Assembly (NCBI GenBank): GCA_049968235.1
Contig: JBMFRC010000007.1
Location: 1 to 64,000, forward strand
DNA length: 64,000 bases
Direction: 5' to 3'
DNA from: Candidatus Hydrogenedens sp.
Lineage (GTDB): Bacteria; Hydrogenedentota; Hydrogenedentia; Hydrogenedentales; Hydrogenedentaceae
In this document: positions 23,070 to 64,000 of the stretch, one piece after another
How positions within the stretch are numbered: position 1 is the stretch's first letter
Layout: the number at the start of each line of letters is the position of its first letter
The notes under the pieces: generated by a model
Told to the model about the DNA's origin: nothing
Seen by the model: the letters and a program-made list of their open reading frames with translations, nothing else
Database searches by the model: none
Translations under genes and position numbers: made by a program

Positions 23070-25256
23070 ATGTTAAAAAAACTATGCATTCTACTAATTG
23101 CTATCCTTTTCTCAACTTATTTTTACTCTTTTTCAGAAGACTATCTACTCCCCGAAGATTTTACTCGTTTTGTAGTTCCAGATGACAGTGAAGTAGGCAC
23201 CGTAATGACGGAATATCTATGGTACCATCTTTTTAAGAGACTCGGGAATGGAAACACCCTTTTCAATAAAGAATATCTGCTCTGTGCAGATACATGGGTA
23301 AATGATTTTATAGAGCCACATAGAAACAAATCTATACAGGAGGTTCACCGGGAAGACCTTCTATCCATCCGAATAGACGATGAAGGCTACATTGATACAC
23401 ATCAACATCTTTCTCATGCTCATGATTCCGGTTGGCCCTTCCCATTATGGACACAGACCTCCGGTCAAAAAGATAAGGGAATAGGCTGGCATTTTCAACC
23501 GCTGGAACAGGTCCCCGGTTGGGTAGGTGAAAATTTACGACATGCTAAAAATGATTCTACATGTGGCGAAAATGCTATTAAACAGTGGGAACTCCAGAAT
23601 TTGACTTCGCATGGTATCTTTGAAAATAAGTGGAAATTGGAAATTACAGGCGAAGGTTCCCCTACCCTTACTTCAAAACTTAGCCTAAATCTAACTGCTG
23701 AGGATATTCCTTTTTTTCAATTGCGGTGGAAACGGGATATTCAGACACAAAACAATCTGCTTCCCTATATGGAATGGAAACGAGTAGGAGATAAGGATTT
23801 CTCACCTAAAAGAAGAATTTATTTCTATTATCAGAACACAGCACTCACCCCTCCCGGATGGGCTCATTCACATATTCCTGTCTACAAACACCCACAATGG
23901 AATGGAACTATTGACCGGATTCGCCTCTGTTTAGCACCCGGACCATGTTCCGGAACATTCCTTATAGACTCCTTTTTCTCTCTTTTTGATACACGCCATA
24001 CTATTAATAACCCCATTTATATTCTGGCTTGTCAGTATTACTTTAACTGGACAGGGGATATTGACTTTTTACGACAGGTTATTAATAAAATGCGATTAGC
24101 ACTACAATATCAGCGGAAAGAATTAGGTGGGGACACGAACCTTTGCATTGTTAACACCTGGATAGGACATGACGGTATCCCAGGCTATAAAATCATGGGA
24201 AAAGAAAAAAAATTTAACATAGGGCATGGGATAGGAAGTAATTATTGGGACTTGTTACCTTTTGGTGGATATGATTGTTACGCTACAAATCAATATCATG
24301 CTTCCCTACTTGCTATGGCAGAAATGGAAGAAGCGATTTTGCAACATCCGGAATGGAATATCCCCCGGGGTGCCCTAGCCCTTGACCCAAAAGAACTTCG
24401 TGAACATGCTCAAAAAGTCCGCGAAAAAGCCCAATCTCTGTTCTGGGATAATGACAAAAAACGTTTTTTTGCCTGTATTGACCGCAATGGAGAAAAACAT
24501 GACTATGGTTTTACTTTTCTAAATCTCGATTGTATCTGGTATGGCATTGCTTCTCATAAACAGGCAGATGAAATTCTCAAATGGCTCGATGGAGAACGAA
24601 TTATTGAGTCAGATACTTCAAAAGGGGATGATATTTACCATTGGCGGTTCGGACCACGTGCAACGACATTGCGGAACATTGATTGGTATGTCTTCTGCTG
24701 GTCACATCCTGAAAATATCCCATGGGGCGGGCAAGTTCAGGACGGTGGTGCTGTCTTAGGTTTTTCTTTCTATGATTTATGGGCAAGATTGCAAATATTA
24801 GGTCCGGATAACGCATGGCAACGCCTCAAAAAAATCGTGGAATGGGAAAAAGAAGTCCGTAGTGCCGGTGGATACAGAAAATATTACGAAGATGGAAAAC
24901 AAGGGACAACATTACAAGGGTGCAACACACCAGGCGGATTAGGAATAGATTGCGAATTTTTTGAAAGCAGTTTATTGCCTTCTATATTCACTTACGGTTT
25001 CATGGGCATATCACCAAGACCTGATAAACTCGAAATAATGCCTAACTTACCAGATAATATTAACAGCATGACCATTAAGAACTTAAAATATAAAGAAAAT
25101 GTTTTAAATATTACCGCTACACATAACGATTTAAGTGTTGAAGTAACAAAAAATATGCCTCAATTCCCTATTTGCATAAAATATGTCAACTCCAAACAAA
25201 CACCCTCTCAGGGAAAAGAAAAGACAATTTCCGAACTCGGAACCTATACATTTTAA
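23070..25256 (+). CDS. Secreted 728-aa protein, possibly a glycoside-hydrolase-like (alpha/alpha)6-barrel enzyme
   Basis: Signal peptide. Trp/Tyr-rich composition typical of carbohydrate-active enzymes. No family-specific catalytic motif recognised. Confidence 0.3.
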   Translation: MLKKLCILLIAILFSTYFYSFSEDYLLPEDFTRFVVPDDSEVGTVMTEYLWYHLFKRLGNGNTLFNKEYLLCADTWVNDFIEPHRNKSIQEVHREDLLSIRIDDEGYIDTHQHLSHAHDSGWPFPLWTQTSGQKDKGIGWHFQPLEQVPGWVGENLRHAKNDSTCGENAIKQWELQNLTSHGIFENKWKLEITGEGSPTLTSKLSLNLTAEDIPFFQLRWKRDIQTQNNLLPYMEWKRVGDKDFSPKRRIYFYYQNTALTPPGWAHSHIPVYKHPQWNGTIDRIRLCLAPGPCSGTFLIDSFFSLFDTRHTINNPIYILACQYYFNWTGDIDFLRQVINKMRLALQYQRKELGGDTNLCIVNTWIGHDGIPGYKIMGKEKKFNIGHGIGSNYWDLLPFGGYDCYATNQYHASLLAMAEMEEAILQHPEWNIPRGALALDPKELREHAQKVREKAQSLFWDNDKKRFFACIDRNGEKHDYGFTFLNLDCIWYGIASHKQADEILKWLDGERIIESDTSKGDDIYHWRFGPRATTLRNIDWYVFCWSHPENIPWGGQVQDGGAVLGFSFYDLWARLQILGPDNAWQRLKKIVEWEKEVRSAGGYRKYYEDGKQGTTLQGCNTPGGLGIDCEFFESSLLPSIFTYGFMGISPRPDKLEIMPNLPDNINSMTIKNLKYKENVLNITATHNDLSVEVTKNMPQFPICIKYVNSKQTPSQGKEKTISELGTYTF

Positions 25257-25282: not shown

Positions 25283-28200
25283 CTAAAAACAGAAGCCGTC
25301 TTCGCTATTCCCAGGACAGAGGGAGTAATGTCCAATGTTAAATATCTGAATTAATCGTAATAATTCTCCAAGGTTAATTTGCCAATCTTGTGGATTGTAA
25401 TCGGATGAATGCGGATAGCAGGAATGGTCTCCATCTAAACCGGGAGAGTAACCATCTTCAGTCCCTTCTTCACAGTGATAACCTCGTATATTAAAGAATT
25501 GTATGACTCGAAGAAGTTCGGTTAAATTAATTGTTCCATCGTTATTTGAATCTGCTGAATGGTGTGTGATTACTTCGCCCTCACCTTCTTGCAAGCCTTC
25601 TCCTTCTATTATACCTTCACCTTCAAATGTTCCTTCAGTTACTCCTTCGCCATCCACTGCTCCTTCGCCTTCTGTTGGTGTTCCTTCACCTTCCATTATT
25701 CCTTCACCTTCCAGTGGTGTCCCCTCACCTTCTAATGTGCCTTCTATTATTCCTTCGGAGCAAGGTCCGGTAGATACATAAATAGTAACTACGGAGCCCG
25801 TAATTATTTGTGTTCCACTGGCTGGCTCCTGTCCAAAAACGATACCTGGTTCTACTCCATCATTGCATTCTGTAACAACACTTACAGTTAATTCCGCAGT
25901 GTTAATTTGGTATTCTGCGGATGACTGTGTTAATCCAATTACATATGGCACAATGGTCATACAAGGACCCAGAGATACTGTAATATCCACAGAAGACCCT
26001 TCCGGAACTTGAGTTCCTGCTGGTAAACTTTGTATAAAAACAATTCCTTCATCATACTGATTGGAACATTGATAATTGACATTACCTATTAAAAGATTTG
26101 CATTAGCAAGTATCAGTTCTGCTTGTTCTACCGCAAACCCAACTATAGCAGGAACATTTGTTGGGCATGGTCCTGAGGAAACTTTCATATCCACAGCATA
26201 CGATTCAGCAACAATATTGTTTTCTTCTGGTGTCTGTGAAAATACCGTTCCTGCTGGATATGCTGTGTTACATTGAACCGAGACCGAACCTCTGTTTAGT
26301 CCTAACTCTGTCAAGGTATTATTTGCTTCTTCCTGACCTAAATCTATTAGTCGCGGAATACTTACAAATTGAATAAGGGGAGTATCTTTCAATTGTGGGT
26401 AACTTTGTGTTTTGGATGGTACATACCACACATTTGCAAAATCCCAACCTGCAATTAAATATGTGTTTATATTTAATAATTCCGTAGTGGTTTTTCCTGT
26501 CCCTCCCCAAGAAGTATTCATACGACTTGTTATTACATTCCAGAATGAGTTCTTTGTTTCTCCTCCGGACTGATACCCAATCAATCCACCAATATAGCCA
26601 CTTATTCCTGATACTTTTCCAATCGAATAACAATTTTCAATAGTCCCCCCAGTAAGATAACCAACCAGTCCTCCTGAATAGAAGGAAGCTTTAACTGTTC
26701 CTGTCGCAAAGCAATTGGTAATAGTACCACCCGTATTCTTTCCGGCAAGCCCTCCTAAATAATTTTGACCATCTAAGTATACATTTGCCCAGCATTTACT
26801 TATTGCCCACGCATTGCTTCCAACAATGCCACCGCAATTATCACTCGCCTTAATTGTTCCTGTACTTGTGCAATATGATACATTTCCATCGTTAGAACCA
26901 ACAATTCCTCCTGCACCGAACGGTGTATTGGTTATATTCATATTAACCTCTGAATAACATTGAGTTACAATATCCTGGTTTTGTCCAACAATTCCGCCGG
27001 TATTTGAATTATTTTGAGAATTACTTAAAATAACATTTGCATAACAGTTTGATATATTCCCATTTTGATTTAATCCCGAAATTCCACCAAGATTGCCTTT
27101 ACCCAATAATGTTCCACTCACCGAAATATTGATAATAGCCCCACCTTCACAAACTCCAATCAAACCTCCTGTATTATTTTTGCCTGAAATGCTGACATCT
27201 TCCAAAATTAGATTTTTAATAATGGCATTTCCCGATATCTTTCCAAATAACCCTATATTATCAGTAGATGATCTATTAATTGTCAGATTTTTAATTTTAA
27301 AACCTTTACCATCAAAATAACCTGTAAAAGGATTATATTGGTTTCCTATAGGAGCGAATCCCAGCCTACCATTCCATTCCGCAGTATTACTCGCATCGAT
27401 ATCCTGACTTAATTCATATCCTCCGTCTAATGGATAATCTGCTGAATTTCCTATTAGTTGTAATTCATCTATACTTGATAGAACTTTTGTTGGTGGAGGA
27501 CAGGGACCATCTGACACAACTAAATTAACGCTATATCCTAAAGGGGCTTCCCAGCCGGGCAATGGGTCTGAGGTGACAACATTTCCATACCCAACGGTAT
27601 CTGAGCATTGATATGATATTTCGCCGACGGTCAATGATGTGGAGATAATTATATCCTGTGCCTCTTCGAGTGGAATGTTATATACAGAAGGTACAGTAGT
27701 GGTTACAAATAGATAAGGATACACAGTATCGTTATCATTGGTCCATGTAAATTCAAAGTCCCAGCCTTCTGCCTCGAATGTTGCACTTTCCAACATTTCT
27801 TCAGTTGTTTTTCCTGTTCCACCAGCGGATGAGTTATAATTCGAAGTATCTTTATCCCAGAATGAACGAATTACATTACCCCAATTGTAGCCTATCAACC
27901 CACCGGAATTGGTTGCACCTTCCGTTACTGAACCTTTAGAATAGGTTTCTTCTACATTGGCAAAATTTAATCCAACAAGTCCTCCCCCGTATTCATGACA
28001 GAATACATTAGAGTGTGAATAGCATCGGTATATTGTGCCTTGATTTACTCCTATCAAGCCCCCAACATAACTTTCAGAACTGATTACTTCACCTTCAGAA
28101 TAAGATTTGCGTATATACCCTTTATTCTTTCCTGCAATTCCACCGATGTATGAACTACCAGAAACATTCGCATTTACATTAGAAAAGTAAATTCCTGATT

Positions 28201-30079
28201 CAGCATCGTTATCGGCACAAATTCCACCGGCATAGTCTGTTGAAGAAGTAATTACAGAATTATCTATGATTGAACAGGTGTTTATACTGCCCCTATTCTT
28301 TGAGACCAGACCCCCAGTATAACTATTACCATTTGCTACACAGTCCGAAATAACTATTTTTTGTATACTACCAAAATTCTCAGACGCTAATACTGCTGTA
28401 CTATCACCACCTGTTATTCTTGCTCCCGAAAAGGTTAAATTCGAAATAGTTGCGGTTGTGTCTAAATATTTAAATAGAGCCACCCCTTGTTCATCAGGTC
28501 GATTTATATACAAGTTCGTAATAGTATACCCCCCGCCTATTATTGTTCCATTGAACCAGAATACATTCGTTCCAATTGGTGCAAATCCTTTGCCTTCATT
28601 CCACGAATAAGTTTCAAAAGCATCTATGTCTGAAGTAATTGTGTATGTCCAAAACAAGGGATAATTTATATTATTTCCGATAGATTGCAGGTCGGATATG
28701 TTATTTATAGATATACTCTGGTCGGGTAAAAACTTTACGAACAATGATGTGGAAGAGGACATTGTCCAAACAATAGGTGTTTCTATAGGGACTATGAAAG
28801 ATTTGTTTGTTCCGGAGTATAATTCATACCCGGCAAAACGATATCCATCATTTGCCGACGGCGTTAATTTAACTATGCTCCATAGGTTATACGGTGGTTC
28901 AGGTTGTGCATCTACAGTGCCATTTTCAGTGTAAATGGTTAGTGCTAATTCCTCCGTTGTGGAAGGAAAAATTTGCAGGTAGGGTCTTGTTTTACCACTA
29001 TCCTGCGACCACACTGAGGTGTAATCCCATCTGACGGATTGAAAAATATCCGGAACTAACATCTGGTCTGTATACAGTTGTCCTCCTCCTGCAGTCTGTG
29101 TCTGCTGTGTTGCATCAATATCAAAAAATGAAACTTGCACTTTTGAAGAGTCACCTGCTCCTACGAGTCCTCCAACATTACTTTTGCCATAAACAAGACC
29201 GGCGGAAAAACATTCTGAAACAATTGACGAATTACTTCCAATTAATCCGCCCACGGTATCCTTTCCAAATGTCCAGCAGGTAGAGAAACATTGAGTTATA
29301 GTTGAATAAGACAATGAAGTTGTTACACCTGCAAAACCTCCAACTTGACTTCCATCTCCATAAACCAAACCTGTTGAACAACACTGTTTAATCTGTGTAG
29401 AAGATGAACCTAAGACTCCTCCTATTGTATTTTGTCCTATAATAAAAATATCTTTTACAAAACAATTCTGGAGTATACCCTCACTCATAGTCCCTGCAAT
29501 ACCCCCTAAAAAAGCAACTCCATTTACTTTTGAATTTACTATTTTTATATCTTCAATAAGATGCCTTTCATCATACCCCGATTGATTTGTGGAACCTATC
29601 CGTAGAATACTTCCTGCTAAGCATCCGACATTAGTTCCTCCTGTTATTTCTGCATTTTCTATTATAAGATTTTTAACTTTTCCTACATAGAATTCAGGTG
29701 CAGAAGAACCATGAGAAATGATATGTGTAGCAACATATCTAAAAATACCGACATTGCTTTCATTCGGACGATTTATATGCAACCCCGTTATTTTGTGTCC
29801 CTGACCATCAAAAGTTCCACAAAAAGGTTCTGTATAAGTGCCGATAGGTTGAAATCCTTCACCTCCATTCCAGCCAAATGTGGCTAAAGCATCGATATCC
29901 TGAGTTAAGACATAATTACCATTACGAGGATAACCCGGGTCATTTCCAATTAGTTGCAGTTTTTCAATTGTATCAATCTGAACCTGTGCTGATAGGTTAG
30001 ATATACATACAGTAAATGACGCGACCACTATTAATAACAAATAATTTCTTTTTGCTATGTCCATATATAAAATCTCCAA
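25283..30079 (-). CDS. Giant secreted surface protein (1598 aa). Multiple GLUG-motif repeats, three PASTA-like modules, an EGEG-repeat linker and a C-terminal tandem dockerin-like module.
   Basis: Signal peptide. More than 20 GGLxG/GGIxG (GLUG-type) repeats. …GxVxxQxPxxGTxxxxGSxVxxxVSxGPC modules (PASTA-like). (EGEG)n tract. C-terminal D-x-N-x-D-G-x-I-N-x-x-ELLRxIQxFN in two copies. Confidence 0.75.
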   Translation of the reverse strand: MEILYMDIAKRNYLLLIVVASFTVCISNLSAQVQIDTIEKLQLIGNDPGYPRNGNYVLTQDIDALATFGWNGGEGFQPIGTYTEPFCGTFDGQGHKITGLHINRPNESNVGIFRYVATHIISHGSSAPEFYVGKVKNLIIENAEITGGTNVGCLAGSILRIGSTNQSGYDERHLIEDIKIVNSKVNGVAFLGGIAGTMSEGILQNCFVKDIFIIGQNTIGGVLGSSSTQIKQCCSTGLVYGDGSQVGGFAGVTTSLSYSTITQCFSTCWTFGKDTVGGLIGSNSSIVSECFSAGLVYGKSNVGGLVGAGDSSKVQVSFFDIDATQQTQTAGGGQLYTDQMLVPDIFQSVRWDYTSVWSQDSGKTRPYLQIFPSTTEELALTIYTENGTVDAQPEPPYNLWSIVKLTPSANDGYRFAGYELYSGTNKSFIVPIETPIVWTMSSSTSLFVKFLPDQSISINNISDLQSIGNNINYPLFWTYTITSDIDAFETYSWNEGKGFAPIGTNVFWFNGTIIGGGYTITNLYINRPDEQGVALFKYLDTTATISNLTFSGARITGGDSTAVLASENFGSIQKIVISDCVANGNSYTGGLVSKNRGSINTCSIIDNSVITSSTDYAGGICADNDAESGIYFSNVNANVSGSSYIGGIAGKNKGYIRKSYSEGEVISSESYVGGLIGVNQGTIYRCYSHSNVFCHEYGGGLVGLNFANVEETYSKGSVTEGATNSGGLIGYNWGNVIRSFWDKDTSNYNSSAGGTGKTTEEMLESATFEAEGWDFEFTWTNDNDTVYPYLFVTTTVPSVYNIPLEEAQDIIISTSLTVGEISYQCSDTVGYGNVVTSDPLPGWEAPLGYSVNLVVSDGPCPPPTKVLSSIDELQLIGNSADYPLDGGYELSQDIDASNTAEWNGRLGFAPIGNQYNPFTGYFDGKGFKIKNLTINRSSTDNIGLFGKISGNAIIKNLILEDVSISGKNNTGGLIGVCEGGAIINISVSGTLLGKGNLGGISGLNQNGNISNCYANVILSNSQNNSNTGGIVGQNQDIVTQCYSEVNMNITNTPFGAGGIVGSNDGNVSYCTSTGTIKASDNCGGIVGSNAWAISKCWANVYLDGQNYLGGLAGKNTGGTITNCFATGTVKASFYSGGLVGYLTGGTIENCYSIGKVSGISGYIGGLIGYQSGGETKNSFWNVITSRMNTSWGGTGKTTTELLNINTYLIAGWDFANVWYVPSKTQSYPQLKDTPLIQFVSIPRLIDLGQEEANNTLTELGLNRGSVSVQCNTAYPAGTVFSQTPEENNIVAESYAVDMKVSSGPCPTNVPAIVGFAVEQAELILANANLLIGNVNYQCSNQYDEGIVFIQSLPAGTQVPEGSSVDITVSLGPCMTIVPYVIGLTQSSAEYQINTAELTVSVVTECNDGVEPGIVFGQEPASGTQIITGSVVTIYVSTGPCSEGIIEGTLEGEGTPLEGEGIMEGEGTPTEGEGAVDGEGVTEGTFEGEGIIEGEGLQEGEGEVITHHSADSNNDGTINLTELLRVIQFFNIRGYHCEEGTEDGYSPGLDGDHSCYPHSSDYNPQDWQINLGELLRLIQIFNIGHYSLCPGNSEDGFCF
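25571..25760 (-). repeat. In-frame short tandem repeat DNA encoding the (T/I)-E-G-E-G linker of the giant protein
   Basis: Periodic gaaggtgaaggt-type units. The antisense frame yields the artefactual PSPS ORF at 25503-25781. Confidence 0.6.
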
Positions 30080-30158: not shown

Positions 30159-30196
30159 AAAAAAAATAGAGCAAAACAAATAATGTTTCGCTCTAT
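30159..30196 (-). terminator. Rho-independent terminator of the rplM-rpsI operon
   Basis: On the minus strand: hairpin (atagagcaaaac / gtttcgctctat, one mismatch, 7-nt loop) followed by a T8 run. Lies 28 nt downstream of the rpsI stop. Confidence 0.65.
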
Positions 30197-31656: not shown

Positions 31657-32853
31657 GTGTCATCATTTTCAAGACCTAAAAAAACAATAGGCATAGACCT
31701 GGGTGCACACTCTGTTAAAACATTACAAATGTCTAAACAAGGAAGAAAAATTTATATAGAAGAAGCAGGCTATGCAGAAATAGATTCTGAATTATCCATT
31801 GCAGACCCAATCAAAGCGAACACAGATGCTTTATTAACAGCACTTACAGGATTATCTCCTAAACAAAGCTATATAGTTTCCGCACTACCTGGAAATACTG
31901 CGGTTGTTCGTTATCCTAAAATCACATTAAAATCAAATGAAACAATAGCAAGTGCTGTTCAAAGGGAATCTTCTCAACATATTCCATTCGACTTAAATGA
32001 GGTATTTTTATCCTGGGATGTTATAGAAAAAGAATCAGAAGAATCTAAAGTACAGATACTTCTGGTAGCAGCGAAAAATGAGGCTATAAACAGCCGTCTT
32101 CGTATTTTCCAGGCATGTGATATTGCATGTTCGGTGTTTGATATAGATTCAATTGCGGTATATAACGCAATAGAAAGGTGTCATTTATTGCATCCCGAAG
32201 AAAGCGTTGCTATTTTTGACATTGGTTACTCTTCTTCAAGTATACATTTTGTTCGCGATATGAAATCTGTGTTTATCCGAGATTTAATGTGGGGGGCAAA
32301 AGATATTCTTGATGCTATCGTAAAGGAAAGAAAATGCGATTATAAACAAGCGGAAAAAGACTTAATTTTAGCAAGCAAAGAAGCCAAAGAAGAACATCCC
32401 GAAGCTGTTGAAATTGCCACACCTGAAGTAGGTGAAGTAGAAGAAGCAATTGTAGCAGAACCTGTTTCCCCACTTGAACCTTTAGATGATGAATTTGATA
32501 TTGATAGACCACCTGTAGAAGTTATAGGTTTTACACCAAAAAGTATAAGTGAAATTATGATTTCGCCTATGAATCGAATGGTGAGTGAGGTAAGACGCTC
32601 TTTTGATTTCTATGAACACCAACTTTATGAAAAACCTGTTAAAAAGATTATTCTTTGCGGTGGTATATCTTGTTATCCTTTAATTGGCGCAACATTAGTG
32701 GAAGAATTTGATGTAGATTCGGTCGAACTTGCTGATTTAACGACTTCAGAAGTTTTTCTTTCCAATTCAAAATCATTAGAAATTTTCAAAGAGCATTCAG
32801 CAAAATTTGCTGTTGCTTTTGGCTTAGCAGCACGAGGATTATCAGAAATATGA
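31657..32853 (+). CDS. pilM: Type IV pilus assembly ATPase-like protein PilM, with an acidic Pro/Glu-rich insertion
   Basis: Actin-like fold N-terminus IGIDLGAHSVKTLQM. First gene of a pilMNOPQ array. Insertion EEHPEAVEIATPEVGEVEEAIVAEPVSPLEPLDDEFD. Confidence 0.8.
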   Translation: MSSFSRPKKTIGIDLGAHSVKTLQMSKQGRKIYIEEAGYAEIDSELSIADPIKANTDALLTALTGLSPKQSYIVSALPGNTAVVRYPKITLKSNETIASAVQRESSQHIPFDLNEVFLSWDVIEKESEESKVQILLVAAKNEAINSRLRIFQACDIACSVFDIDSIAVYNAIERCHLLHPEESVAIFDIGYSSSSIHFVRDMKSVFIRDLMWGAKDILDAIVKERKCDYKQAEKDLILASKEAKEEHPEAVEIATPEVGEVEEAIVAEPVSPLEPLDDEFDIDRPPVEVIGFTPKSISEIMISPMNRMVSEVRRSFDFYEHQLYEKPVKKIILCGGISCYPLIGATLVEEFDVDSVELADLTTSEVFLSNSKSLEIFKEHSAKFAVAFGLAARGLSEI

Positions 32854-33581
32854 TAAGAATTAATTTATTACCCGAACAATATAGACCTGTAAAGAAATCC
32901 ATACTTCCATACTTTTTGGCAATGGTGATATGTGTTTTAGGTATTCTGTCTATTATTTTCTTTTACTTATCACTACACCAAAAAGTTATTCAAGTTGAAA
33001 CACAAAAAAGTAAACTCCAAAAAGAATATGACTCTCCAACTGAATTAAGAAATGAAGATGGAGAATTTATAACCCTATCAGGAGTTGTAAATGAATATCG
33101 GAAGTTAGATAAGAAAAAACAGGAATTAGAAAAAAGAGTGGCTGTTATTCAGGAAATTCTAAGTGACCGCATTATCTGGTCTGAAAACCTTTTCTTGCTT
33201 GCTACATTGACGCCAGAAAATGTTTGGTATGATAGAATTCGTGTTACATGGCAGACATTTCGGGAAAAAGTTATTAAAATAGACCAAAAAACAGGCAAAG
33301 CAGTTATTGACCCTAAAACAAAAGAACCTCAATTTGAACAGAAAAGTGTAAAGAAGCCTATTCTCGAAATCACTGGTTATGTAATTAGTGGAGAACAAGG
33401 TGAACGACAAATATCTCCTCTTATTGAAAATACAACAGACCCCGAAAAAGCATCCTATTTCGTAAAACAGTTTACTTTATTAAGACCTAAGATTGAAGAT
33501 ACAGAGTTTAATGGTTTTTCCGTTCGTAAATTTACATTAGAATATTTAATTGAAGCCAAACCGGGAGTCAAAAATGATTGA
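32850..33581 (+). CDS. pilN: Type IV pilus inner-membrane component PilN
   Basis: MIRINLLPEQYR start motif. Single N-terminal TM. ATGA overlap with pilM. Confidence 0.75.
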   Translation: MIRINLLPEQYRPVKKSILPYFLAMVICVLGILSIIFFYLSLHQKVIQVETQKSKLQKEYDSPTELRNEDGEFITLSGVVNEYRKLDKKKQELEKRVAVIQEILSDRIIWSENLFLLATLTPENVWYDRIRVTWQTFREKVIKIDQKTGKAVIDPKTKEPQFEQKSVKKPILEITGYVISGEQGERQISPLIENTTDPEKASYFVKQFTLLRPKIEDTEFNGFSVRKFTLEYLIEAKPGVKND

Positions 33582-34161
33582 TTTATTTCGTGGCAAAATA
33601 ACAATTAAAGACTGGGCAATTTTCGGGTTGGTATTGGCAGTTGTTGTTGGTTTATTTATTACTGCCTACCTGCTACTCTTTATTCCACAACAAAATAAGA
33701 TAGCACAGATACAAAATGATATTAATAATTTGCAAAAGAAGATTTCAGATGCAAAAAAAACCGTAGATAATTATGACAAATTACAGAATCAAGCGAAGAA
33801 GATGGACAATTTAGTAAAAATGTTTAATGAACGATTGCCCGAAAAAAGAGAAGTCCCGAAACTTATGAAACAATTTGAAAGTATGGGAGATAGCCTAGGA
33901 TTAAAAACGCAACTTACTCCCCTACCTACAACCGTAGACGCATCAAAAGAAGTAATTCCGTATCAGGTTGTGGCTAAAGGTTCTTTTCATCAGATTGTTG
34001 CTTTTATCAACTTATTAGAAAAAGACCAGCGTTATCTAAAAATTTCAGACCTTGATATTGGCCCTGAAAAAGCAGGGATTTGTGAAGCAAAATTTGTTCT
34101 TAGTACATTCCGTTTCGTTGAACAAGAAGATACTGGAACCCAACAACAGAAGAAGTCATAA
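33574..34161 (+). CDS. pilO: Type IV pilus inner-membrane component PilO
   Basis: Single TM, coiled coil then periplasmic domain. The likely start is MIDLFRG, overlapping the pilN stop; the track gives an alternative upstream start at 33550. Confidence 0.6.
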   Translation: MIDLFRGKITIKDWAIFGLVLAVVVGLFITAYLLLFIPQQNKIAQIQNDINNLQKKISDAKKTVDNYDKLQNQAKKMDNLVKMFNERLPEKREVPKLMKQFESMGDSLGLKTQLTPLPTTVDASKEVIPYQVVAKGSFHQIVAFINLLEKDQRYLKISDLDIGPEKAGICEAKFVLSTFRFVEQEDTGTQQQKKS

Positions 34162-34163
34162 CT

Positions 34164-34745
34164 ATGGATAACAGAAGACAAATAATCATAGCAGGAGCAT
34201 TGCTCGTTATACTTATCGGCGTTCTCTTCTATCAATTCGTTTTGGCAAGGCCCAATGCACCAACTCCTTCGCCAACAACCAATACAAAAACAACTACGCA
34301 AACCCTTTCAACAACAACTTCTACACAAGTAGCATCTACATCCACAAGCGGAACATCCATTGCACCTACGATTGATACTCTGGAACAAAATGTTGATGAA
34401 ATCATCGAAAATTTATTAACTGCTATTCAAATAGTCCAATTTAACTATCAAGAAATAGTTCCTCCCCGTAACCCAATGACACCACTGGTTGGGGTAATAC
34501 CAACAACAATATTTGAGGCAGAAACCCCTGTTCCTAATACAGAAGTAACACCGGGACAGGTTCTCAGTAAAAAGATTTCGGCGATTATCTGGGATGAATA
34601 TCAACCTTTAGCCATAATTGACAATAAACTTGTGGCAGAAGGATATACTTTCCCAGACCGTATACAAGTATATAAGATTGAACCAACACGGATTATATTT
34701 AAACTCGAAGATACAATTTTCCCGGTAAGATTAAAGGAGCAATAA
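34164..34745 (+). CDS. pilP: PilP-like lipoprotein/periplasmic pilus assembly protein with Thr/Ser-rich linker
   Basis: Its position between pilO and pilQ. N-terminal TM/signal. T/S-rich low-complexity linker. C-terminal beta-rich domain. Confidence 0.4.
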   Translation: MDNRRQIIIAGALLVILIGVLFYQFVLARPNAPTPSPTTNTKTTTQTLSTTTSTQVASTSTSGTSIAPTIDTLEQNVDEIIENLLTAIQIVQFNYQEIVPPRNPMTPLVGVIPTTIFEAETPVPNTEVTPGQVLSKKISAIIWDEYQPLAIIDNKLVAEGYTFPDRIQVYKIEPTRIIFKLEDTIFPVRLKEQ

Positions 34746-34746
34746 A

Positions 34747-37404
34747 ATGCAAAAAAGGAAAAACATCTGTTCCAATTTACAGCAATCTGCTATAATAGCA
34801 CCATGTAAAAAGGGGTTTTATGTTCCTGGTTTTCTTCTGTTTATTCCCTTACTTTTCATTGTTTGTTCACCATCCCTTGCTATTGATGATGGAACGAACT
34901 CTTTATGGAAACAGCAAGAAAATACATGGGTCTTCCAACTCAACAATAATCTCAATATGTCGTATCTCATATCGGAAAACAAAGAGAAAAATGAAATTAA
35001 ACTCACATTAGAATATTCCAACGGTATTTCTCTCTCTACGGAACAAATTTTACAAAACAAACCTGATTTTGTATCTATCGATTGTTCAAAAATAGACAAA
35101 TCTGGCATGGAATATACCTTTTCTATCGCATCCAACCATGCGTATAATGTCCAAAAAAACGAAAATAGTTTATCTATCATTTTTAAACCAGCGGGAAAAT
35201 ACCCTTCTGAAATTGAAAAGGTTGCTTCAGATATACAATCGCTCATAAATAATTCTAATATTAGAGGAACATCTATTGTTGATGAAAAAATTAACTCTTT
35301 AGACAACACAATATCTAAACTCCGGGTTGAAAATGAACTTAAATTAGCCAAACAAATCACACCTGAATTAATATTACAAAAACCCAATCAAGTTTTTAGT
35401 CAGAATATAAATGTAGCACAATCGCTTTCCGTTGGAAATGTAGGGAATCCAGAAAGAAAAATTGAAATTCGTGAAGCAAAACCTGTGGATACACCTCCCC
35501 CCCCACCCCCTCCTGCAGTAGAAAATACAGATACCCAACCGCAGGAGAATATTTCCCAAACACCTCCTGAAACACATAAAGAAGAAGCCTCTCAACAACC
35601 CCAAACTACACAGGAAACTCCCGCAGAAGAAGGAACGCAACCTCCTATGCCTCGTGAAGCAACACCGGAACAGGCAATCGATGCTACAGCAGAGATAACA
35701 AGAGAATTAAGAGAATTGCAAACTACAAATGAAGAACCAGATAAACAATTAGTTCCTATAACGCCAGAAGAAACAAAACCTGCAGGAAAAATAACCGAGG
35801 CAGAAAAACCAAAAGAGGAAATTTTATCAGAGGTAAAAATTAAACCTTCGCCTAAAGGTTTAGATACCATCACGGACTTTGAATGTGAACAGATGCCTTT
35901 AGCTAAAGTAGTTCCTTTATTAGCTTACAAAGCAGGGATAAATGTAATAGCGGGAGCAGACCTTAAAGGCAATGTTACTATGAGTTTGAAGCAAGTAACT
36001 CTTAGAAAAGCCATTGAAGCTGCTTTAAGAATGAATGGGCTTGGAATAATTCAAGAAGAAAATATCTATCGAATTGTTCCTTATGAAGAAGCGCTGTCCA
36101 GTGATAGAAGTACTATTGTTGTCCGTCTGGAAAACGCTAAAGCAACCGAAATAAGAAAAGTTCTCGAAGAAATTACAAAAGGGACAAAAGGTAGGGAATA
36201 TATTACCCTTAGTGCCAATGATACTACAAATGTAGTAATTCTCTCGGGACCAGAAGAAAACATTCAAGGTTTGGCACAAATGGCAAAGGAATTGGATATA
36301 GCCAAACCTATTATTCCTACAATAACAGCAACAATAAAACTAAACTATGCAGACCCCGACGAACTGGCAAAATCTATTCAAAAAATTCTCACACCTAAAA
36401 CAGGAAATGTATCTGCAGATGCTCGTGCAAGAAATATTATTGTAACCGATATTCCGGTGGTAGTTGAACAAGTAAAAGAAATTGTGAAAACCCTTGATAT
36501 TCCTGTTAAACAGGTCCTTATTGATACAATGGTTGTTGACGCTACATTAGGAGATGAATCACAAACAGGTATTGATTGGTTATTAAAATCGGTTCGTAAT
36601 CAGAGTTGGAGAGATTTTGTAATGTATGGACCTGAGGGTAGAAAAGTAGGTAATATTCAGCAACTTGATTTAGGTGGTGCATCCCAAACAGGTGATACGA
36701 TAGGCAACCTTACCTTCAATATTCTTACTCGTGAAATCGATTGGAAAGGTATAATTAAAGCCCAGATACAAAATCGGAATGGACATCTCATTTCCAACCC
36801 TGTTGTAGCCACTATTGAGAATAAACCTGCAACAATAACAATCTCTCAAGAAATTCCTTATATCGACCTTTCACAAACAAGTGAGGGAGGTGCTTTGACA
36901 AATACACGATTCAAACAGATAGGTACTGTTCTTGAGGTTACCCCGCGGGTTACTCATGATAATCATGTAATTATAGACATTAAGGGTAAAGAAAGCACTG
37001 TGGTCGGTGAGTTTAATGGTGTTCCCATTGAAGATATGAGACAGGTTACTAGCACACTTCATATTAATAGCGGTCAAACTATCTTTGTTGGCGGCTTAAG
37101 AAAACGCAATGATAGTGTAACCTCGCAGAAAATGCCCATACTCGGAGATATACCTGTATTAAATGTTGTCTTCAAATCTAATCAACGGAAGGCTCAAATT
37201 AATGAGTTATTAATCTTCCTTACTTGCTCTGTTTTAGAACAGGAATTACCGGAATTAACAGATGAGCAGAAAAAAGCCTATGACGACGCAAAACAGGCAC
37301 CTATGGATGCAGACCTCAGTAAATATATGGGACATGATATCCTTCACCCAAAAGATATATCTACTCCTCCCTATAAATGGAAAAGGGTCAAAAAAGACCA
37401 ATAG
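34747..37404 (+). CDS. pilQ: Type IV pilus secretin PilQ, with a long Pro/Gln/Glu-rich linker between N-terminal domains
   Basis: C-terminal secretin domain (…VLEVTPRVTHDNHVIIDIKGKES…IFVGGLRKRND…MPILGDIPVLNVVFKS…ELLIFLT…). PPPPPPPA linker. Confidence 0.9.
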   Translation: MQKRKNICSNLQQSAIIAPCKKGFYVPGFLLFIPLLFIVCSPSLAIDDGTNSLWKQQENTWVFQLNNNLNMSYLISENKEKNEIKLTLEYSNGISLSTEQILQNKPDFVSIDCSKIDKSGMEYTFSIASNHAYNVQKNENSLSIIFKPAGKYPSEIEKVASDIQSLINNSNIRGTSIVDEKINSLDNTISKLRVENELKLAKQITPELILQKPNQVFSQNINVAQSLSVGNVGNPERKIEIREAKPVDTPPPPPPPAVENTDTQPQENISQTPPETHKEEASQQPQTTQETPAEEGTQPPMPREATPEQAIDATAEITRELRELQTTNEEPDKQLVPITPEETKPAGKITEAEKPKEEILSEVKIKPSPKGLDTITDFECEQMPLAKVVPLLAYKAGINVIAGADLKGNVTMSLKQVTLRKAIEAALRMNGLGIIQEENIYRIVPYEEALSSDRSTIVVRLENAKATEIRKVLEEITKGTKGREYITLSANDTTNVVILSGPEENIQGLAQMAKELDIAKPIIPTITATIKLNYADPDELAKSIQKILTPKTGNVSADARARNIIVTDIPVVVEQVKEIVKTLDIPVKQVLIDTMVVDATLGDESQTGIDWLLKSVRNQSWRDFVMYGPEGRKVGNIQQLDLGGASQTGDTIGNLTFNILTREIDWKGIIKAQIQNRNGHLISNPVVATIENKPATITISQEIPYIDLSQTSEGGALTNTRFKQIGTVLEVTPRVTHDNHVIIDIKGKESTVVGEFNGVPIEDMRQVTSTLHINSGQTIFVGGLRKRNDSVTSQKMPILGDIPVLNVVFKSNQRKAQINELLIFLTCSVLEQELPELTDEQKKAYDDAKQAPMDADLSKYMGHDILHPKDISTPPYKWKRVKKDQ

Positions 37405-59103: not shown

Positions 59104-61803
59104 CTAATATTCATAGGCTCCCATATCATAATCAGACCCATCCCCGGTAACACCTGAAATGGCGTCTCGTCCACGGAGATTTCCTTCAATATCTGTCAAT
59201 ACATTTCCCCATTCATTAGGACTTGTATCCATTCCTCTGTCGATACAAGGAGAACTACTATTCAATCTAAAATTACCGGCACTCGGGAAAATAAATAATG
59301 GGTCTGAACTTATATTTCCTTCTCCATTCTTCACCTGCTGTGTGTTACAATACATAAAAATTGCATCATTCCCGAGAGAATATGTCCCCTGTCCAGAATT
59401 TTGCCATATAATAGTATTCGCAAATGCTACATTGCTATAGTAGTTAAACACAGCCCCACCATGACTCGTCGTTGTTAAATCTGCTTGATTATCATATAAG
59501 GTACAGTTTGAAAAAACAACATTTTCACACAGGTCTATATGCACCCCACCCGTTCTTTCAATAGAAGAACTAAAATCATAAGCCTTATTTCTAAATCCTA
59601 TGGCATTTACAATTTTTGCAGAACTTTTTGTCATATAAATCATTCCTGCACTTGCTCGGGAAAAACCCCTATGGTCATTTGTAGAAACCGTATTATTTCT
59701 AAAATCTGAGTTTCTCAAATTTATATCGCTATACCATAGGTAAATAGCCCCTCCTAATGCTTTTGCGAAAGCACCATAAACCCCACCGTTAACAGTCCCA
59801 TGCCCTATCCCTTCTGCGGAACATGCATTTGAATAGAACAAACAGTTATCTATAGTTAATGAAGTATTGTAAGCAAATATTCCTCCACCAGCAGACACAA
59901 CGGTTATGTTCTGTGTAGAGGTTTGCCAAGTTCCTTGTGATGAAATTCGATTTGACTCAAAACGAGAATTCTGAATATTAATTACACTGTCTGTCACATA
60001 AATAGCAGAACCATAATTATAACTGGAATCGGATGAAACATTTTCTATTACATTCTCAATGAAATTACAGTTATATAAAGATAATTTCCCACTGATACAA
60101 CATATGCCAGCACCTACTCCGACTGATTTATTCTGGAAAAATGTACAGTTCTTGACAACCATTTTCTTTGCGGGAATATATAGACCACCTCCATCCTGAG
60201 CATCGCTGTAAACATAATCATAGCGGGCATCTCCCCCTTTTATTATGAATCCATTCAGTTCGCTATAATTTTCACCTTTAACTACATGCCAGGCTGGTTG
60301 TCCATCTCTTGCGATACTGCCATTTATAATAGTGATATTTGTTTGATAATTTCTTTGATTTAGTTCAGTTTCCGTACCTTGAAATCCCCCATAGACATTC
60401 ACCAATTCTCGAAGTATTAATGCTCCATAAGGATTTAAAGGATTTGAACGAACTTCATTATAATCTCCCGCAGAAACCCATACCTCTCCTCCACCTAACT
60501 CGAACGCTCTATCTATCCCTTCTTGCAAAGTAGGAAATGCTGTTGCCCATGATAATCCATCAGGTTCAATTTCTTCTTTTTGCCCCTTTGTCTGAGGTTT
60601 TTTTACATATATTCGTGAACCCTGGATTATTTCAATATAATCTGTTTTTTGTTTTATACTTTGTCCTGCACTGGTCGTAACGATTAATGTTACGGTATAA
60701 ATTCCCGGAGATAGATATGTGTGAGTAGGATTCCTCAAGAAACTAAAACTTCCATCCCCGAAATTCCACTGCCAGGCTGGTTCTGTTCCATTGCCCATTT
60801 TACTTTCATCACGGAACTCGATTTCATTATTGATTATGTTTTTTACAGGGGTAGCCGAAAAGTCTGCTATGGGAGGATAAGGAAAGGAACTATAAATACG
60901 TATGTAACCCGCTAAAATAGAAAGCGGATATATCAATCCATCAGGATAACTGGTAGCCATCACATTTTCTGCATAAATAGAATAAATATCATTAAATTCA
61001 GCATTTTCAGAGACTTTAAACCTCAAAATAGCATATATGCCTGATGACATTCCTGAAGTGGATGTGCCTGTTGTCGTTAATCTAAGTTTCCCTGGAATGA
61101 TTTGTCCTACTGATAGATTTCGACCTGTATTTTGAATCGCCGGTCCTATCATAAAATCCAGATATTGTATCCGATTGGAATTGAAAATCAGGTCAAACTG
61201 AACATATCCTAATATAACATTTTTAGTTTCAAGAGTAAGCGGAATATTTATTTCTGTATTAGGAACTGTATCCTTTCTATCAACAACAATACGAGCATAA
61301 TTATATGTCTCTCCTTCTCCTTCCCCTTCCAATACTCCTTCCGCAGAACCTTCTCCTTCGAAACCTTCCGGAGTCCCTTCAGGTGCCCCTTCAATAATTA
61401 CAGGACATAAAACAGGGCGAAAACCATCTTCTTTAGATGGGTCTATTTCATAACCACATACATTATAAAACTGAACCAAACGAAGAAGCTCATTTAATGT
61501 TATTCGCCAGAAATTATTCGGTTCATAATCGCTATCATGGGGTTCACATGACTGGTCCCCCGCTCCCGGTGCATATCCGTCTTCTCCAGCAGGGTCACAA
61601 TGATAGGCACGGGCATTAAAAAACTGGATTACACGTAGTAATTCGCTTAAATCAATTTTATAATCTTGATTCTTATCTGCAGTATGATAATCTCCCTTCC
61701 CAACCGAATCAACTGCATAGGAAGCATTACTTAAAATCCCGTTTAATACACACAAAAAAATGGCAGTTACAAACAGCCCTAACAATGTTATTTTACGTCT
61801 CAT
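59104..61803 (-). CDS. Secreted 899-aa protein: N-terminal tandem dockerin-like module, EGEG linker, PKD domain and right-handed parallel beta-helix (pectate-lyase-fold) region
   Basis: Signal peptide. DLSELLRVIQFFN…ITLNELLRLVQFYN. EGEGSAEGVLEGEGEGE. WQWNFGDGS…NPTHTY (PKD). Repeated NxxFxxN beta-helix turns. Confidence 0.65.
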   Translation of the reverse strand: MRRKITLLGLFVTAIFLCVLNGILSNASYAVDSVGKGDYHTADKNQDYKIDLSELLRVIQFFNARAYHCDPAGEDGYAPGAGDQSCEPHDSDYEPNNFWRITLNELLRLVQFYNVCGYEIDPSKEDGFRPVLCPVIIEGAPEGTPEGFEGEGSAEGVLEGEGEGETYNYARIVVDRKDTVPNTEINIPLTLETKNVILGYVQFDLIFNSNRIQYLDFMIGPAIQNTGRNLSVGQIIPGKLRLTTTGTSTSGMSSGIYAILRFKVSENAEFNDIYSIYAENVMATSYPDGLIYPLSILAGYIRIYSSFPYPPIADFSATPVKNIINNEIEFRDESKMGNGTEPAWQWNFGDGSFSFLRNPTHTYLSPGIYTVTLIVTTSAGQSIKQKTDYIEIIQGSRIYVKKPQTKGQKEEIEPDGLSWATAFPTLQEGIDRAFELGGGEVWVSAGDYNEVRSNPLNPYGALILRELVNVYGGFQGTETELNQRNYQTNITIINGSIARDGQPAWHVVKGENYSELNGFIIKGGDARYDYVYSDAQDGGGLYIPAKKMVVKNCTFFQNKSVGVGAGICCISGKLSLYNCNFIENVIENVSSDSSYNYGSAIYVTDSVINIQNSRFESNRISSQGTWQTSTQNITVVSAGGGIFAYNTSLTIDNCLFYSNACSAEGIGHGTVNGGVYGAFAKALGGAIYLWYSDINLRNSDFRNNTVSTNDHRGFSRASAGMIYMTKSSAKIVNAIGFRNKAYDFSSSIERTGGVHIDLCENVVFSNCTLYDNQADLTTTSHGGAVFNYYSNVAFANTIIWQNSGQGTYSLGNDAIFMYCNTQQVKNGEGNISSDPLFIFPSAGNFRLNSSSPCIDRGMDTSPNEWGNVLTDIEGNLRGRDAISGVTGDGSDYDMGAYEY

Positions 61804-63590: not shown

Positions 63591-63652
63591 ATAATTCTTT
63601 CTATATCTGTTCTTAATTATATCCTTTAAAGAGGAGATTTTGTTCAATAAAT

Positions 63653-64000
63653 TTAAATTTCTTCTATAGCCATTGCGGTTGTCTTTACAAGATGTGTCTT
63701 CCAATTTAGTTTCCTGATTAACTCTTTACCTTGTTTTTTAGACTCTACAATAACAAAAAAGGTTGACCCACTACCTGTCATTCCCACATACGGAAAACCC
63801 ATTTTTTTTATTTTTAATTTTAATTCATATAATTCTGGATAAATACAAAATGCGGGTAATTCTAATCGATTGTATATAACCTTCTTCCAATTCCTTTTCC
63901 GTAATGCATATATTACTTTTCTAAACCTAATACTATATTTAATTGCAACTACATGTGAAGGTCGAATACTTAATGCGGGATGTTGATACACCTTTGCGGT
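63653..64000 (-). CDS. ispE: 3' portion of a GHMP-kinase gene, probably 4-diphosphocytidyl-2-C-methyl-D-erythritol kinase; start lies beyond the window end
   Basis: C-terminal GHMP motif MTGSGSTFFVI, positioned as in IspE. Reading frame is open to the window edge. Confidence 0.4.
   Translation of the reverse strand, partial: TAKVYQHPALSIRPSHVVAIKYSIRFRKVIYALRKRNWKKVIYNRLELPAFCIYPELYELKLKIKKMGFPYVGMTGSGSTFFVIVESKKQGKELIRKLNWKTHLVKTTAMAIEEI

What the first reader, a model, noticed from the sequence alone, without database searches (positions are those of the whole stretch)
25283..30079. 1598-aa surface protein combining GLUG repeats with PASTA-like modules
The central 1000 aa carry more than 20 GGL(V/I)G-type GLUG repeats, of the kind seen in IgA1-protease-like and adhesin proteins. 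Residues approx. 1180-1440 contain three units of the form (I/V)xG…A…L…G…Y…QxPxxGTxxxxGSxVxxxVSxGPC. These resemble PASTA domains, which normally occur in PBPs and Ser/Thr kinases rather than in giant secreted adhesins. A 60-aa (EGEG)n linker and the dockerin-like tail follow. Taken together, the GLUG repeats, PASTA-like modules and dockerin-like tail are an unusual domain combination.
Basis: partly seen in the sequence, partly recalled or inferred. Interest (0 to 1): 0.5.

Follow-up and report, generated by a model that had tools for sequence, protein, structure and literature searches.

The report
Secreted GLUG β-helix/PASTA surface protein
This gene from an uncultured Gram-negative bacterium (Candidatus Hydrogenedens) encodes a large secreted protein with no recognisable enzyme domain, built from three β-helix "GLUG" modules, four true PASTA domains, an acidic linker and a dockerin-like docking tail; the domain calls are right, but the design recurs in this phylum and is already auto-annotated, so it is only moderately interesting.

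Summary

GLUG+PASTA is not rare: 19 of the 120 best homologs have both. I found no paper describing it.

Most likely this is a secreted adhesin-like display protein docked through its Ca²⁺-type tail, with PASTA acting as stapled spacer or glycan-binding modules. The function is inferred, not shown.

The parts
25283..30064 (-). Coding sequence of the GLUG/PASTA protein (1593 aa from the ATG at 30064; stop codon 25283-25285). Residue numbers in this report follow the 1598-aa numbering.
30074..30077 (-). GGAG Shine-Dalgarno, 9 nt upstream of the ATG at 30064.
   Evidence: read directly from the sequence
30166..30196 (-). Terminator-like hairpin (13 pairs plus a T-run) after rpsI. It marks the upstream boundary, so this gene is its own transcription unit.
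29984..30064 (-). Signal-peptide-like N-terminus (aa 6-32: MDIAKRN + hydrophobic core + SNLSAQ). Orthologs have equivalent N-termini.
   Evidence: inferred from sequence features, no predictor was run
28955..29983 (-). GLUG β-helix module 1 (aa 33-375; 5 strict GLUG turns). The most divergent of the three.
   Evidence: 16 bits alone; aligns along its length with modules 2 and 3
28724..28927 (-). Probable divergent InlB B-repeat (Flg_new_2) domain, aa 385-452.
   Evidence: 17.3 bits against a cutoff of 23.6. PF18998 is common in GLUG homologs.
27704..28717 (-). GLUG β-helix module 2 (aa 455-792; 6 strict turns).
   Evidence: (37 bits)
27491..27694 (-). PASTA domain 1 (aa 796-863), with Cys825 and Cys860.
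   Evidence: (34.9 bits)
26384..27484 (-). GLUG β-helix module 3 (aa 866-1232; 8 strict turns), with N-cap and C-cap.
26156..26359 (-). PASTA domain 2 (aa 1241-1308), with Cys1270 and Cys1305.
   Evidence: (33.9 bits)
25952..26155 (-). PASTA domain 3 (aa 1309-1376), with Cys1338 and Cys1373.
   Evidence: (45.4 bits)
25751..25951 (-). PASTA domain 4 (aa 1377-1443), with Cys1405 and Cys1440.
   Evidence: (53.5 bits)
25571..25759 (-). Acidic E/G-rich (EGEG)n linker, aa 1441-1503 (63 aa, 60% E+G).
25286..25570 (-). Dockerin-like two-repeat tail (aa 1504-1598). Each repeat is a Ca-loop, a helix (ELLR[VL]IQ[FI]FN) and a Cys-closed hairpin. It has four conserved Cys.

Best explanation
The gene encodes a Sec-exported, non-enzymatic, modular display or adhesin-like protein of a Gram-negative Candidatus Hydrogenedens species.

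The order of parts is: signal peptide, GLUG β-helix 1, InlB-B-repeat-like domain, GLUG β-helix 2, PASTA, GLUG β-helix 3, three PASTA domains, a 63-aa acidic E/G linker, and a 95-aa dockerin-like tail.

Shown: all domain identities; the β-helix fold of the GLUG module; the absence of any detectable catalytic domain; the conserved chromosomal position; and that the tail is a portable module present on dozens of diverse secreted proteins per genome.

Inferred: (i) the three β-helices are the ligand-binding heads; (ii) the PASTA units are small α/β modules, each stapled by a disulfide, that space and stiffen the protein and may bind glycan or muropeptide; (iii) the acidic linker is a flexible tether; (iv) the tail binds Ca²⁺ through at least its first, canonical EF-hand loop and docks the protein non-covalently to a partner on the cell surface or on a scaffold, as dockerins do.
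For: Domain identity:
- GLUG scores 111 bits and four PASTA units each pass the Pfam cutoff.
- The PASTA region aligns to solved Stk1 and PknB PASTA structures at E 1e-13 to 7e-10.

GLUG fold:
- The AF2 model has pLDDT about 97 over 350 residues.
- That domain is the non-catalytic NTD2 gating domain of the M26 IgA1 proteases (PMC9637739).

No enzyme: there is no HExxH motif, and no catalytic family appears in Pfam or NCBIfam.

PASTA Cys pair:
- Among GLUG+PASTA proteins, 37 units have both Cys, 30 have neither, and the one exception is cut off by the protein's end. States are mixed within single proteins.
- 21 of 29 units in tail-bearing representatives have the pair.
- The isolated PASTA1 keeps both Cys, so the pairing is within the domain.
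- The first Cys replaces the conserved PASTA Tyr.

Tail:
- Loop 1 matches D-x-[ND]-x-[DN]-x-x-[IV]-x-L-x-E, with E12 in 223 of 224 copies. The Cys pattern is CCCC in 173 copies and CCxx in 45, with 6 others.
- The family has 2,668 cluster representatives, and at least 581 copies in species-representative genomes, dozens per Hydrogenedentota MAG.
- Of 164 copies, 120 are C-terminal, 22 N-terminal and 22 internal, and 13 proteins have several copies.
- In 58 proteins it accompanies 88 Pfam families, including peptidases, LRR, Ig, PKD and β-helices.
- A second protein in this window carries it at its N-terminus.

Context:
- A T4P secretin cluster is in the window, and the phylum is predicted Gram-negative (PMC11406978).
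- Synteny rplM-rpsI-gene-GH65C-like is conserved in three other assemblies.
Against: - No experiment or ligand is known for any GLUG module. The literature calls the motif 'of unknown function' (PMC9723798).
- The export route across the outer membrane is not identified, so a periplasmic location is not excluded.
- No cohesin-like partner was found. The one candidate segment in the window had no Pfam hit.
- The AF2 model of the PASTA unit was low-confidence (pLDDT below 50), so the disulfide geometry is untested.
- The second Ca-loop of the tail has a non-canonical 13-residue form.
Confidence: 0.6

Rival explanations
1. The PASTA arrays are the functional cargo. They would bind peptidoglycan or muropeptides of other cells, so the protein attaches Hydrogenedens to bacterial necromass or prey cell walls, with the β-helices as accessory binders.
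For: These are genuine PASTA domains related to the PknB and Stk1 sensor PASTAs. PASTA recurs in 13 of 147 tail-bearing secreted proteins and in arrays of 7-9 units in other GLUG proteins. In a diderm, the cell's own peptidoglycan cannot be reached from outside, so an external target would make sense (inference).
Against: Many PASTA domains do not bind peptidoglycan (my own knowledge of the PASTA literature, not tested here). No ligand-binding residues could be evaluated. The apparently 'PASTA-only' proteins turned out to be truncated ORFs, or possibly truncated. PASTA always sits at inter-module or pre-linker positions, which is typical of spacers.
Confidence: 0.17
2. The protein stays in the periplasm. 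Its PASTA domains would bind the cell's own peptidoglycan, and the tail would dock to a periplasmic or outer-membrane partner.
For: Only a Sec-type signal peptide is evident and no outer-membrane translocation signal was identified. Disulfide-rich modules fit an oxidising periplasm.
Against: The protein is large, and its adhesin-type β-helix and InlB-repeat architecture is typical of surface proteins. Homologs end in TM anchors or true type-I dockerins. Tail-bearing cargo includes M4 and M14 peptidases, LRR and Ig domains, typical of exoproteins.
Confidence: 0.1
3. The tail is a secretion or sorting signal, analogous to a T9SS C-terminal domain or PEP-CTERM, and not a docking module.
For: 120 of 164 copies lie within 15 residues of the C-terminus. 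There are dozens per genome, on diverse cargo.
Against: 22 copies are N-terminal, directly after the signal peptide, including ORF 59104..61803 in this window. Another 22 are internal, and 13 proteins have 2-4 copies. This does not fit a terminal sorting signal. The fold is a pair of EF-hand-like loop-helix repeats whose best structural matches are dockerins.
Confidence: 0.1
4. It is an IgA1-protease-like (M26) enzyme or a PASTA Ser/Thr kinase or PBP-type sensor.
For: There is a sub-threshold Peptidase_M26_N match (25 against 27.7 bits) and a partial match to NF033483 PknB_PASTA_kin (132 against 450 bits). One related cluster is named 'Ser/Thr kinase PK-1' in NCBI.
Against: There is no HExxH motif, and no M26 catalytic, kinase or transpeptidase domain and no TM segment. 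The M26_N match covers only the N-cap of a GLUG module. The NF033483 match covers only its PASTA part, model positions 364-563.
Confidence: 0.02

Closest known systems
NTD2 β-helix (GLUG) domain of M26 IgA1 metalloproteases (S. pneumoniae 6XJA/6XJB/7JGJ; G. haemolysans 7UVK/7UVL) and the stand-alone BACOVA_03286 (3N6Z)
   Different: Here there are three tandem copies, with no M26 middle or C-terminal protease domains and no HExxH motif. The modules are combined with PASTA and a dockerin-like tail instead of G5 or LPXTG elements.
PASTA domains of PknB/Stk1/PrkC Ser/Thr kinases and class B PBPs (PF03793; 3M9G, 3PY9, 2KUI)
   Same: A clear sequence family match for all four units. Three of them form an extracytoplasmic tandem array, as in PknB and Stk1.
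   Different: They are not attached to a kinase or transpeptidase, and there is no membrane anchor. The host is a Gram-negative phylum. The conserved Tyr is replaced by Cys, paired with a Cys just after the terminal Gly-Pro (inferred disulfide). One unit is inserted between β-helix modules.
Type I dockerins of cellulosomal and non-cellulosomal proteins (PF00404)
   Same: An internally duplicated Ca-loop plus helix. It is mostly C-terminal, sometimes N-terminal or multi-copy, preceded by a flexible linker, and present on dozens of diverse secreted proteins per genome. Dockerins are its best structural matches.
GLUG/Flg_new adhesin-like proteins of archaea and Bacteroidota (for example those noted in Methanimicrococcus blatticola, PMC9723798)
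   Same: Large secreted or membrane-bound proteins that combine GLUG modules with InlB B-repeat (Flg_new) domains. They are proposed, but not shown, to be adhesins.
   Different: Those use TM anchors, T9SS C-terminal domains or other anchors, and mostly lack PASTA.

Membership tests
PASTA domain (PF03793) | Match to the family HMM above the curated gathering score | tested here: met
   The whole protein scores 132.2 bits against 23.2. The four units alone score 34.9, 33.9, 45.4 and 53.5 bits.
PASTA domain (PF03793) | Sequence homology to PASTA domains of solved structure | tested here: met
   3M9G and 3PY9 (Stk1) at E 1e-13; 2KUI and 5E12 (PknB) at E 7e-10 and 9e-6. The alignments run through complete units.
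PASTA domain (PF03793) | Small α/β fold (one helix packed on a three-stranded sheet) | tested here: inconclusive
   In the AF2 model, PASTA2 shows a helix plus strands but pLDDT is below 50, because only 6 alignment rows cover it.
PASTA domain (PF03793) | Binding of β-lactam, muropeptide or peptidoglycan | not testable with these tools
   Needs binding assays.
PASTA Ser/Thr kinase (NF033483) or class B PBP | Kinase or transpeptidase catalytic domain and a TM anchor | tested here: not met
   NF033483 scores 132 bits against a cutoff of 450 and matches only model positions 364-563, its PASTA part. No kinase or transpeptidase Pfam hit was found.
GLUG motif (PF07581) | Match to the family HMM above the gathering score | tested here: met
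   111 bits against 20.5. Module 3 scores 97.8, module 2 scores 37.3, and module 1 scores only 16 alone but aligns along its length with the other two.
GLUG motif (PF07581) | Periodic GG[LIV]xG turns of a β-helix, as in IgA1-protease NTD2 and 3N6Z | tested here: met
M26 IgA1 metalloprotease | HExxH zinc motif with a downstream Glu, and the M26 middle and C-terminal domains | tested here: not met
   No HExxH motif anywhere. Only Peptidase_M26_N is matched, below threshold (25 against 27.7 bits), and the match covers a GLUG N-cap.
Dockerin type I (PF00404) | Match to the family HMM above the gathering score | tested here: not met
   14.4 bits (whole protein) and 18.3 bits (tail alone) against 22.9. 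Only the second half of the model is matched.
Dockerin type I (PF00404) | Two duplicated EF-hand-like Ca²⁺ loops, each followed by a helix | tested here: inconclusive
Dockerin type I (PF00404) | A cognate cohesin partner | not tested
   One candidate segment in ORF 59104..61803 had no Pfam hit. No genome-wide search for a partner was possible.
InlB B-repeat (Flg_new_2, PF18998) | Match to the family HMM above the gathering score | tested here: inconclusive
   17.3 bits against 23.6, E 0.005, for aa 385-452. The equivalent position in homolog P0009 carries PF18998.

The most novel reading that the evidence does not exclude
The LLRVIQFFN tail would be the docking half of an undescribed, phylum-wide surface-display system in Hydrogenedentota. 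This would be a Cys-stapled, enlarged dockerin analogue with a still-unknown, non-cohesin receptor. It would organise dozens of exoproteins per cell. This conserved GLUG/PASTA protein would be one of its core cargoes, with disulfide-stapled PASTA modules that bind peptidoglycan of other cells, for scavenging necromass or attaching to prey.
Probability: 0.2. Interest if true: 0.6.

Novelty: new variant of a known kind. Interest (0 to 1): 0.33.

Why it matters
PASTA domains are usually discussed as peptidoglycan or β-lactam sensors of Gram-positive kinases and PBPs. Here they are genuine PASTA domains with a Cys pair, used as building blocks of secreted β-helix proteins in a Gram-negative candidate phylum. 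This widens the known context of the family. It also shows how PASTA-driven auto-annotation can mislead: one relative is named a Ser/Thr kinase.

The tail is the more useful lead. It is a large family (about 2,700 clusters) with no curated model, and it marks much of the Hydrogenedentota exoproteome. It could identify the cell-surface toolkit of an uncultured, globally distributed phylum. It might also supply a new Ca²⁺-dependent docking pair for protein engineering, if a partner exists.

None of this changes a long-standing question, so the interest is moderate.

Tried and rejected
- **IgA1-protease or kinase reading.** Rejected: no HExxH motif and no catalytic domains.
- **Cohesin-like segment in ORF 59104..61803 (aa about 145-305).** My impression from reading the sequence. 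Pfam at E ≤ 10 found nothing, so I dropped it.
- **'PASTA-only cargo' proteins as evidence that PASTA is functional cargo.** P0246 starts inside a GLUG C-cap and P0227 has no signal peptide, so these are truncated or possibly truncated ORFs. I withdrew the claim.
- **Homolog search with the PASTA3-4 tandem alone.** Only 3 hits, because of the word index. Uninformative.
- **AF2 of PASTA2 appended to GLUG module 3.** pLDDT below 50, so the disulfide geometry could not be checked. The tools give no access to model coordinates.
- **AFDB50 fold search of the tail.** The library was unavailable.
- **Rfam and tRNA scans of the window.** Nothing found.
- **Co-transcription with rplM-rpsI.** Unlikely, given the strong terminator-like hairpin at 30196-30166.
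- **Literature searches.** No paper holds both 'GLUG' and 'PASTA domain'. The four papers that mention both Hydrogenedentes and dockerin are general metagenome surveys by their titles and abstracts; I did not open them. The two Hydrogenedentota genome papers listed contain none of the terms PASTA, cohesin, adhesin or EF-hand.
Full report
**1. The observation**

The ORF at 25283..30079 on the minus strand is real and is by far the longest in its neighbourhood.
- The TTG at 30079 lies inside a GGAG Shine-Dalgarno (30077-30074) that sits 9 nt upstream of an ATG at 30064.
- The identical NCBI protein (MGC9052870.1, MGC8738280.1, MGC8845344.1; [quoted passage not shown]) starts at that ATG and has 1593 aa.
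- Residues 6-32 look like a Sec signal peptide: a basic n-region, a hydrophobic core and SNLSAQ. Orthologs have equivalent N-termini. No predictor was run on this.
- A strong terminator-like hairpin (30196-30166, 13 pairs plus a T-run) separates the gene from rpsI upstream.

**2. Domain anatomy**

Pfam gives PASTA at 132 bits (E 6e-39, four stretches) and GLUG at 111 bits (E 8e-33). Peptidase_M26_N, Dockerin_1 and EF-hand match only below threshold. Piece-by-piece scans and an internal alignment resolve the following parts:

| Part | Residues | Evidence |
|---|---|---|
| GLUG module 1 | 33-375 | 16 bits alone; aligns along its length with modules 2 and 3 |
| Probable InlB B-repeat | 385-452 | 17.3 bits against a cutoff of 23.6 |
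| GLUG module 2 | 455-792 | 37 bits |
| PASTA1 | 796-863 | 34.9 bits |
| GLUG module 3 | 866-1232 | 98 bits |
| PASTA2 | 1241-1308 | 33.9 bits |
| PASTA3 | 1309-1376 | 45.4 bits |
| PASTA4 | 1377-1443 | 53.5 bits |
| E/G-rich linker | 1441-1503 | 63 aa, 60% E+G |
| Two-repeat tail | 1504-1598 | sub-threshold Dockerin_1 and EF-hand |

- The PASTA gathering score is 23.2 bits, so all four units pass on their own.
- The linker is encoded by imperfect 18- and 39-nt repeats.
- There are 19 strict GLUG motifs at 26-30 residue spacing (5+6+8), against 0.94 expected by chance and a maximum of 6 in 2000 shuffles.
It missed PASTA1 and placed the PASTA block about 60 residues too early.

**3. What the GLUG modules are**

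- By sequence, no solved structure matches the GLUG region.
- An AlphaFold2 model of module 3, built with 26 module sequences from homologs, has pLDDT about 97 over residues 1-350. It is an all-β solenoid with helical caps.
- In the M26 proteases this β-helix (NTD2) is a non-catalytic gating domain (PMC9637739).
- The window protein has no HExxH motif and no M26 catalytic, kinase or PBP domain. It is therefore not a protease, kinase or PBP.
- The only literature on GLUG proteins I found calls the motif "of unknown function" and suggests adhesion (PMC9723798).

**4. The PASTA modules**

- The PASTA region aligns to the solved Stk1 (3M9G, 3PY9; E 1e-13) and PknB (2KUI; E 7e-10) PASTA arrays.
- Every unit has two Cys exactly 35 residues apart: 825/860, 1270/1305, 1338/1373 and 1405/1440.
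- In the alignment to Stk1, the first Cys replaces the conserved PASTA Tyr (…SYSDKY… against …QCSNQY…). The second follows the terminal Gly-Pro.
- Across 68 PASTA units from GLUG+PASTA proteins, 37 have both Cys and 30 have neither. The single exception is cut off by the end of a partial protein. Both states occur within single proteins (P0008, P0018, P0020, P0066).
- Among tail-bearing representatives, 21 of 29 units have the pair.
- The isolated PASTA1 keeps both Cys, so the pairing must be within the domain.
- I infer an intradomain disulfide staple.

**5. The tail**

- The consensus is HSADxNxDxxIxLxELLRVIQFFN…HC…TEDGYAPG…C.PH.SDYNPQDWxIxLxELLRLIQFFNSGGYHxCP…TEDGYCPG.
- No Pfam or NCBIfam model reaches threshold.
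- AF2 folds it at pLDDT 92.9 and pTM 0.82, as two loop-helix repeats each followed by a small hairpin.
- Loop 1 is a canonical EF-hand/dockerin loop: D1 in 218 of 224 copies, N/D3, D/N5, I/V8, and E12 in 223 of 224. Loop 2 is a conserved 13-residue variant.
- The four Cys occur as CCCC in 173 copies, CCxx in 45 and other patterns in 6. This implies C1-C2 and C3-C4 pairs.
- An exhaustive search finds 2,668 cluster representatives at E ≤ 1e-3 and 1,996 at ≤ 1e-10.
The best 80 are all in Hydrogenedentota-type MAGs, and single genomes contribute dozens.
- Of 164 copies, 120 are at the extreme C-terminus, 22 directly follow an N-terminal signal peptide and 22 are internal. Thirteen proteins have 2-4 copies.
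- In 58 proteins the tail accompanies 88 Pfam families, including InlB repeats, PASTA, Ig, CHRD, GLUG, LRR, β-helix, FGE-sulfatase, PKD and M4 and M14 peptidases.
- This window holds a second example: ORF 59104..61803(-) has a signal peptide, the tail, an EG linker, PKD and a right-handed β-helix.
- This behaviour fits a portable docking module. It does not fit a terminal sorting signal.

**6. How unusual the combination is**

- Of the 120 best homologs, 20 carry PASTA and 19 carry both PASTA and GLUG.
- Seven of these are the protein itself or close orthologs at 65-73% identity (one of them a partial protein).
- The rest include proteins with the same EG linker and tail (P0008, P0018, P0020, P0036), with a true type-I dockerin (P0011, P0097), or with a C-terminal TM anchor and up to nine PASTA units (P0009, P0035, P0110).
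- Where names exist they are Hydrogenedentota. One cluster is named "Serine/threonine-protein kinase PK-1", most likely because of its PASTA domains.
- PASTA typically follows directly after the GLUG C-cap (…YPYL…VP.v.G…), so GLUG-PASTA looks like a recurrent supermodule.
- No paper in the library contains both "GLUG" and "PASTA domain".
- The architecture is therefore undescribed in print, but common in data and already auto-annotated.

**7. Context**

- The organism is low-GC (about 36%).
- It encodes a pilM/pilO/secretin cluster next to the gene, and it belongs to a phylum predicted to be Gram-negative (PMC11406978).
- The order pilM | rplM-rpsI-[this gene]-GH65C-like (convergent)-UDP-glucose dehydrogenase-MaoC-AMP ligase is conserved in three other assemblies whose orthologs are 65-67% identical.
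- This is a stable, vertically inherited chromosomal gene. It is not in a variable island.

**8. Explanation and verdict**

Most likely (0.6) this is a Sec-exported, non-enzymatic, adhesin-like display protein.
- The three β-helix heads bind a ligand.
- The disulfide-stapled PASTA units act as stiff spacers, possibly with glycan-binding ability.
- The acidic linker acts as a tether.
- The tail docks the protein, probably in a Ca²⁺-dependent way, to an unknown surface or scaffold partner.

The domain identities, the GLUG fold, the absence of catalytic domains, the Cys co-variation and the portability of the tail are shown. Adhesion, disulfide formation, Ca²⁺ binding, docking and extracellular location are inferred.

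The rivals are:
- PASTA as a peptidoglycan-targeting cargo (0.17).
- A periplasmic location (0.1).
- The tail as a sorting signal (0.1).
- An enzyme or kinase reading (0.02).

The finding is a correct domain call on a protein whose architecture is a lineage-typical variant of known modular surface proteins. Interest is moderate to low. The tail family is the best lead to follow.

Noticed in passing
window 59104..61803 (-): An 899-aa protein with a signal peptide, the same LLRVIQFFN two-repeat module at its N-terminus (aa about 40-135), an EGEG linker, an unassigned 150-aa β-rich segment, a PKD domain and a right-handed β-helix. It shows within this window that the 'tail' is a portable module.
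   Followed up: partly
window 61923..63704 (-): A 593-aa protein with two E/G-rich (EGxEG) linkers and a C-terminal canonical EF-hand pair, but no LLRVIQFFN module. Otherwise no Pfam family. E/G-rich linkers appear to be a house style of this organism's secreted proteins.
   Followed up: partly
window 31657..37404 (+): A type IV pilus assembly cluster (PilM, an unassigned ORF, PilO, an unassigned ORF, and a secretin with an STN domain), divergent from rplM. It is consistent with a diderm envelope. pilM is also adjacent to rplM in an ortholog locus (L083).
   Followed up: partly
window 23070..25256 (+): A convergent 728-aa neighbour with a signal-peptide-like N-terminus and only a GH65 C-terminal domain hit. 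It keeps this position in the loci of P0005 (GCA_000402275.1 and a JGI metagenome contig); the P0003 locus has a 736-aa gene there with no Pfam hit on record.
   Followed up: partly
window 25503..25781 (+): A 92-aa 'PSPS…' ORF on the opposite strand. It is a shadow of the EGEG-linker coding repeats, not a gene.
   Followed up: no
loci L002, L008-L009, L011-L015, L017-L018 and others: MAGs titled 'uncultured Nitrospirales bacterium' carry many copies of the Hydrogenedentota-type tail at 55-79% identity. Either these bins are taxonomically mislabelled or the module occurs outside Hydrogenedentota.
   Followed up: no
P0354 (OQB39478.1), in the P0110 cluster: A GLUG+PASTA surface protein of a Hydrogenedentes MAG is named 'Serine/threonine-protein kinase PK-1' in NCBI. 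This is probably a mis-annotation driven by its PASTA domains.
   Followed up: no
tail homologs P0121-P0192: Most word-index hits to the tail are 75-170-aa partial ORFs at contig ends. My inference is that assemblies break in the repetitive EGEG-linker DNA, so tail-bearing proteins are systematically fragmented in metagenomes.
   Followed up: no
P0193 (2552 aa), P0196, P0207: Some proteins carry 3-5 copies of the tail module, in tandem in P0196 and P0207 and spread along the protein in P0193. They could be scaffold-like or multivalent docking proteins.
   Followed up: no
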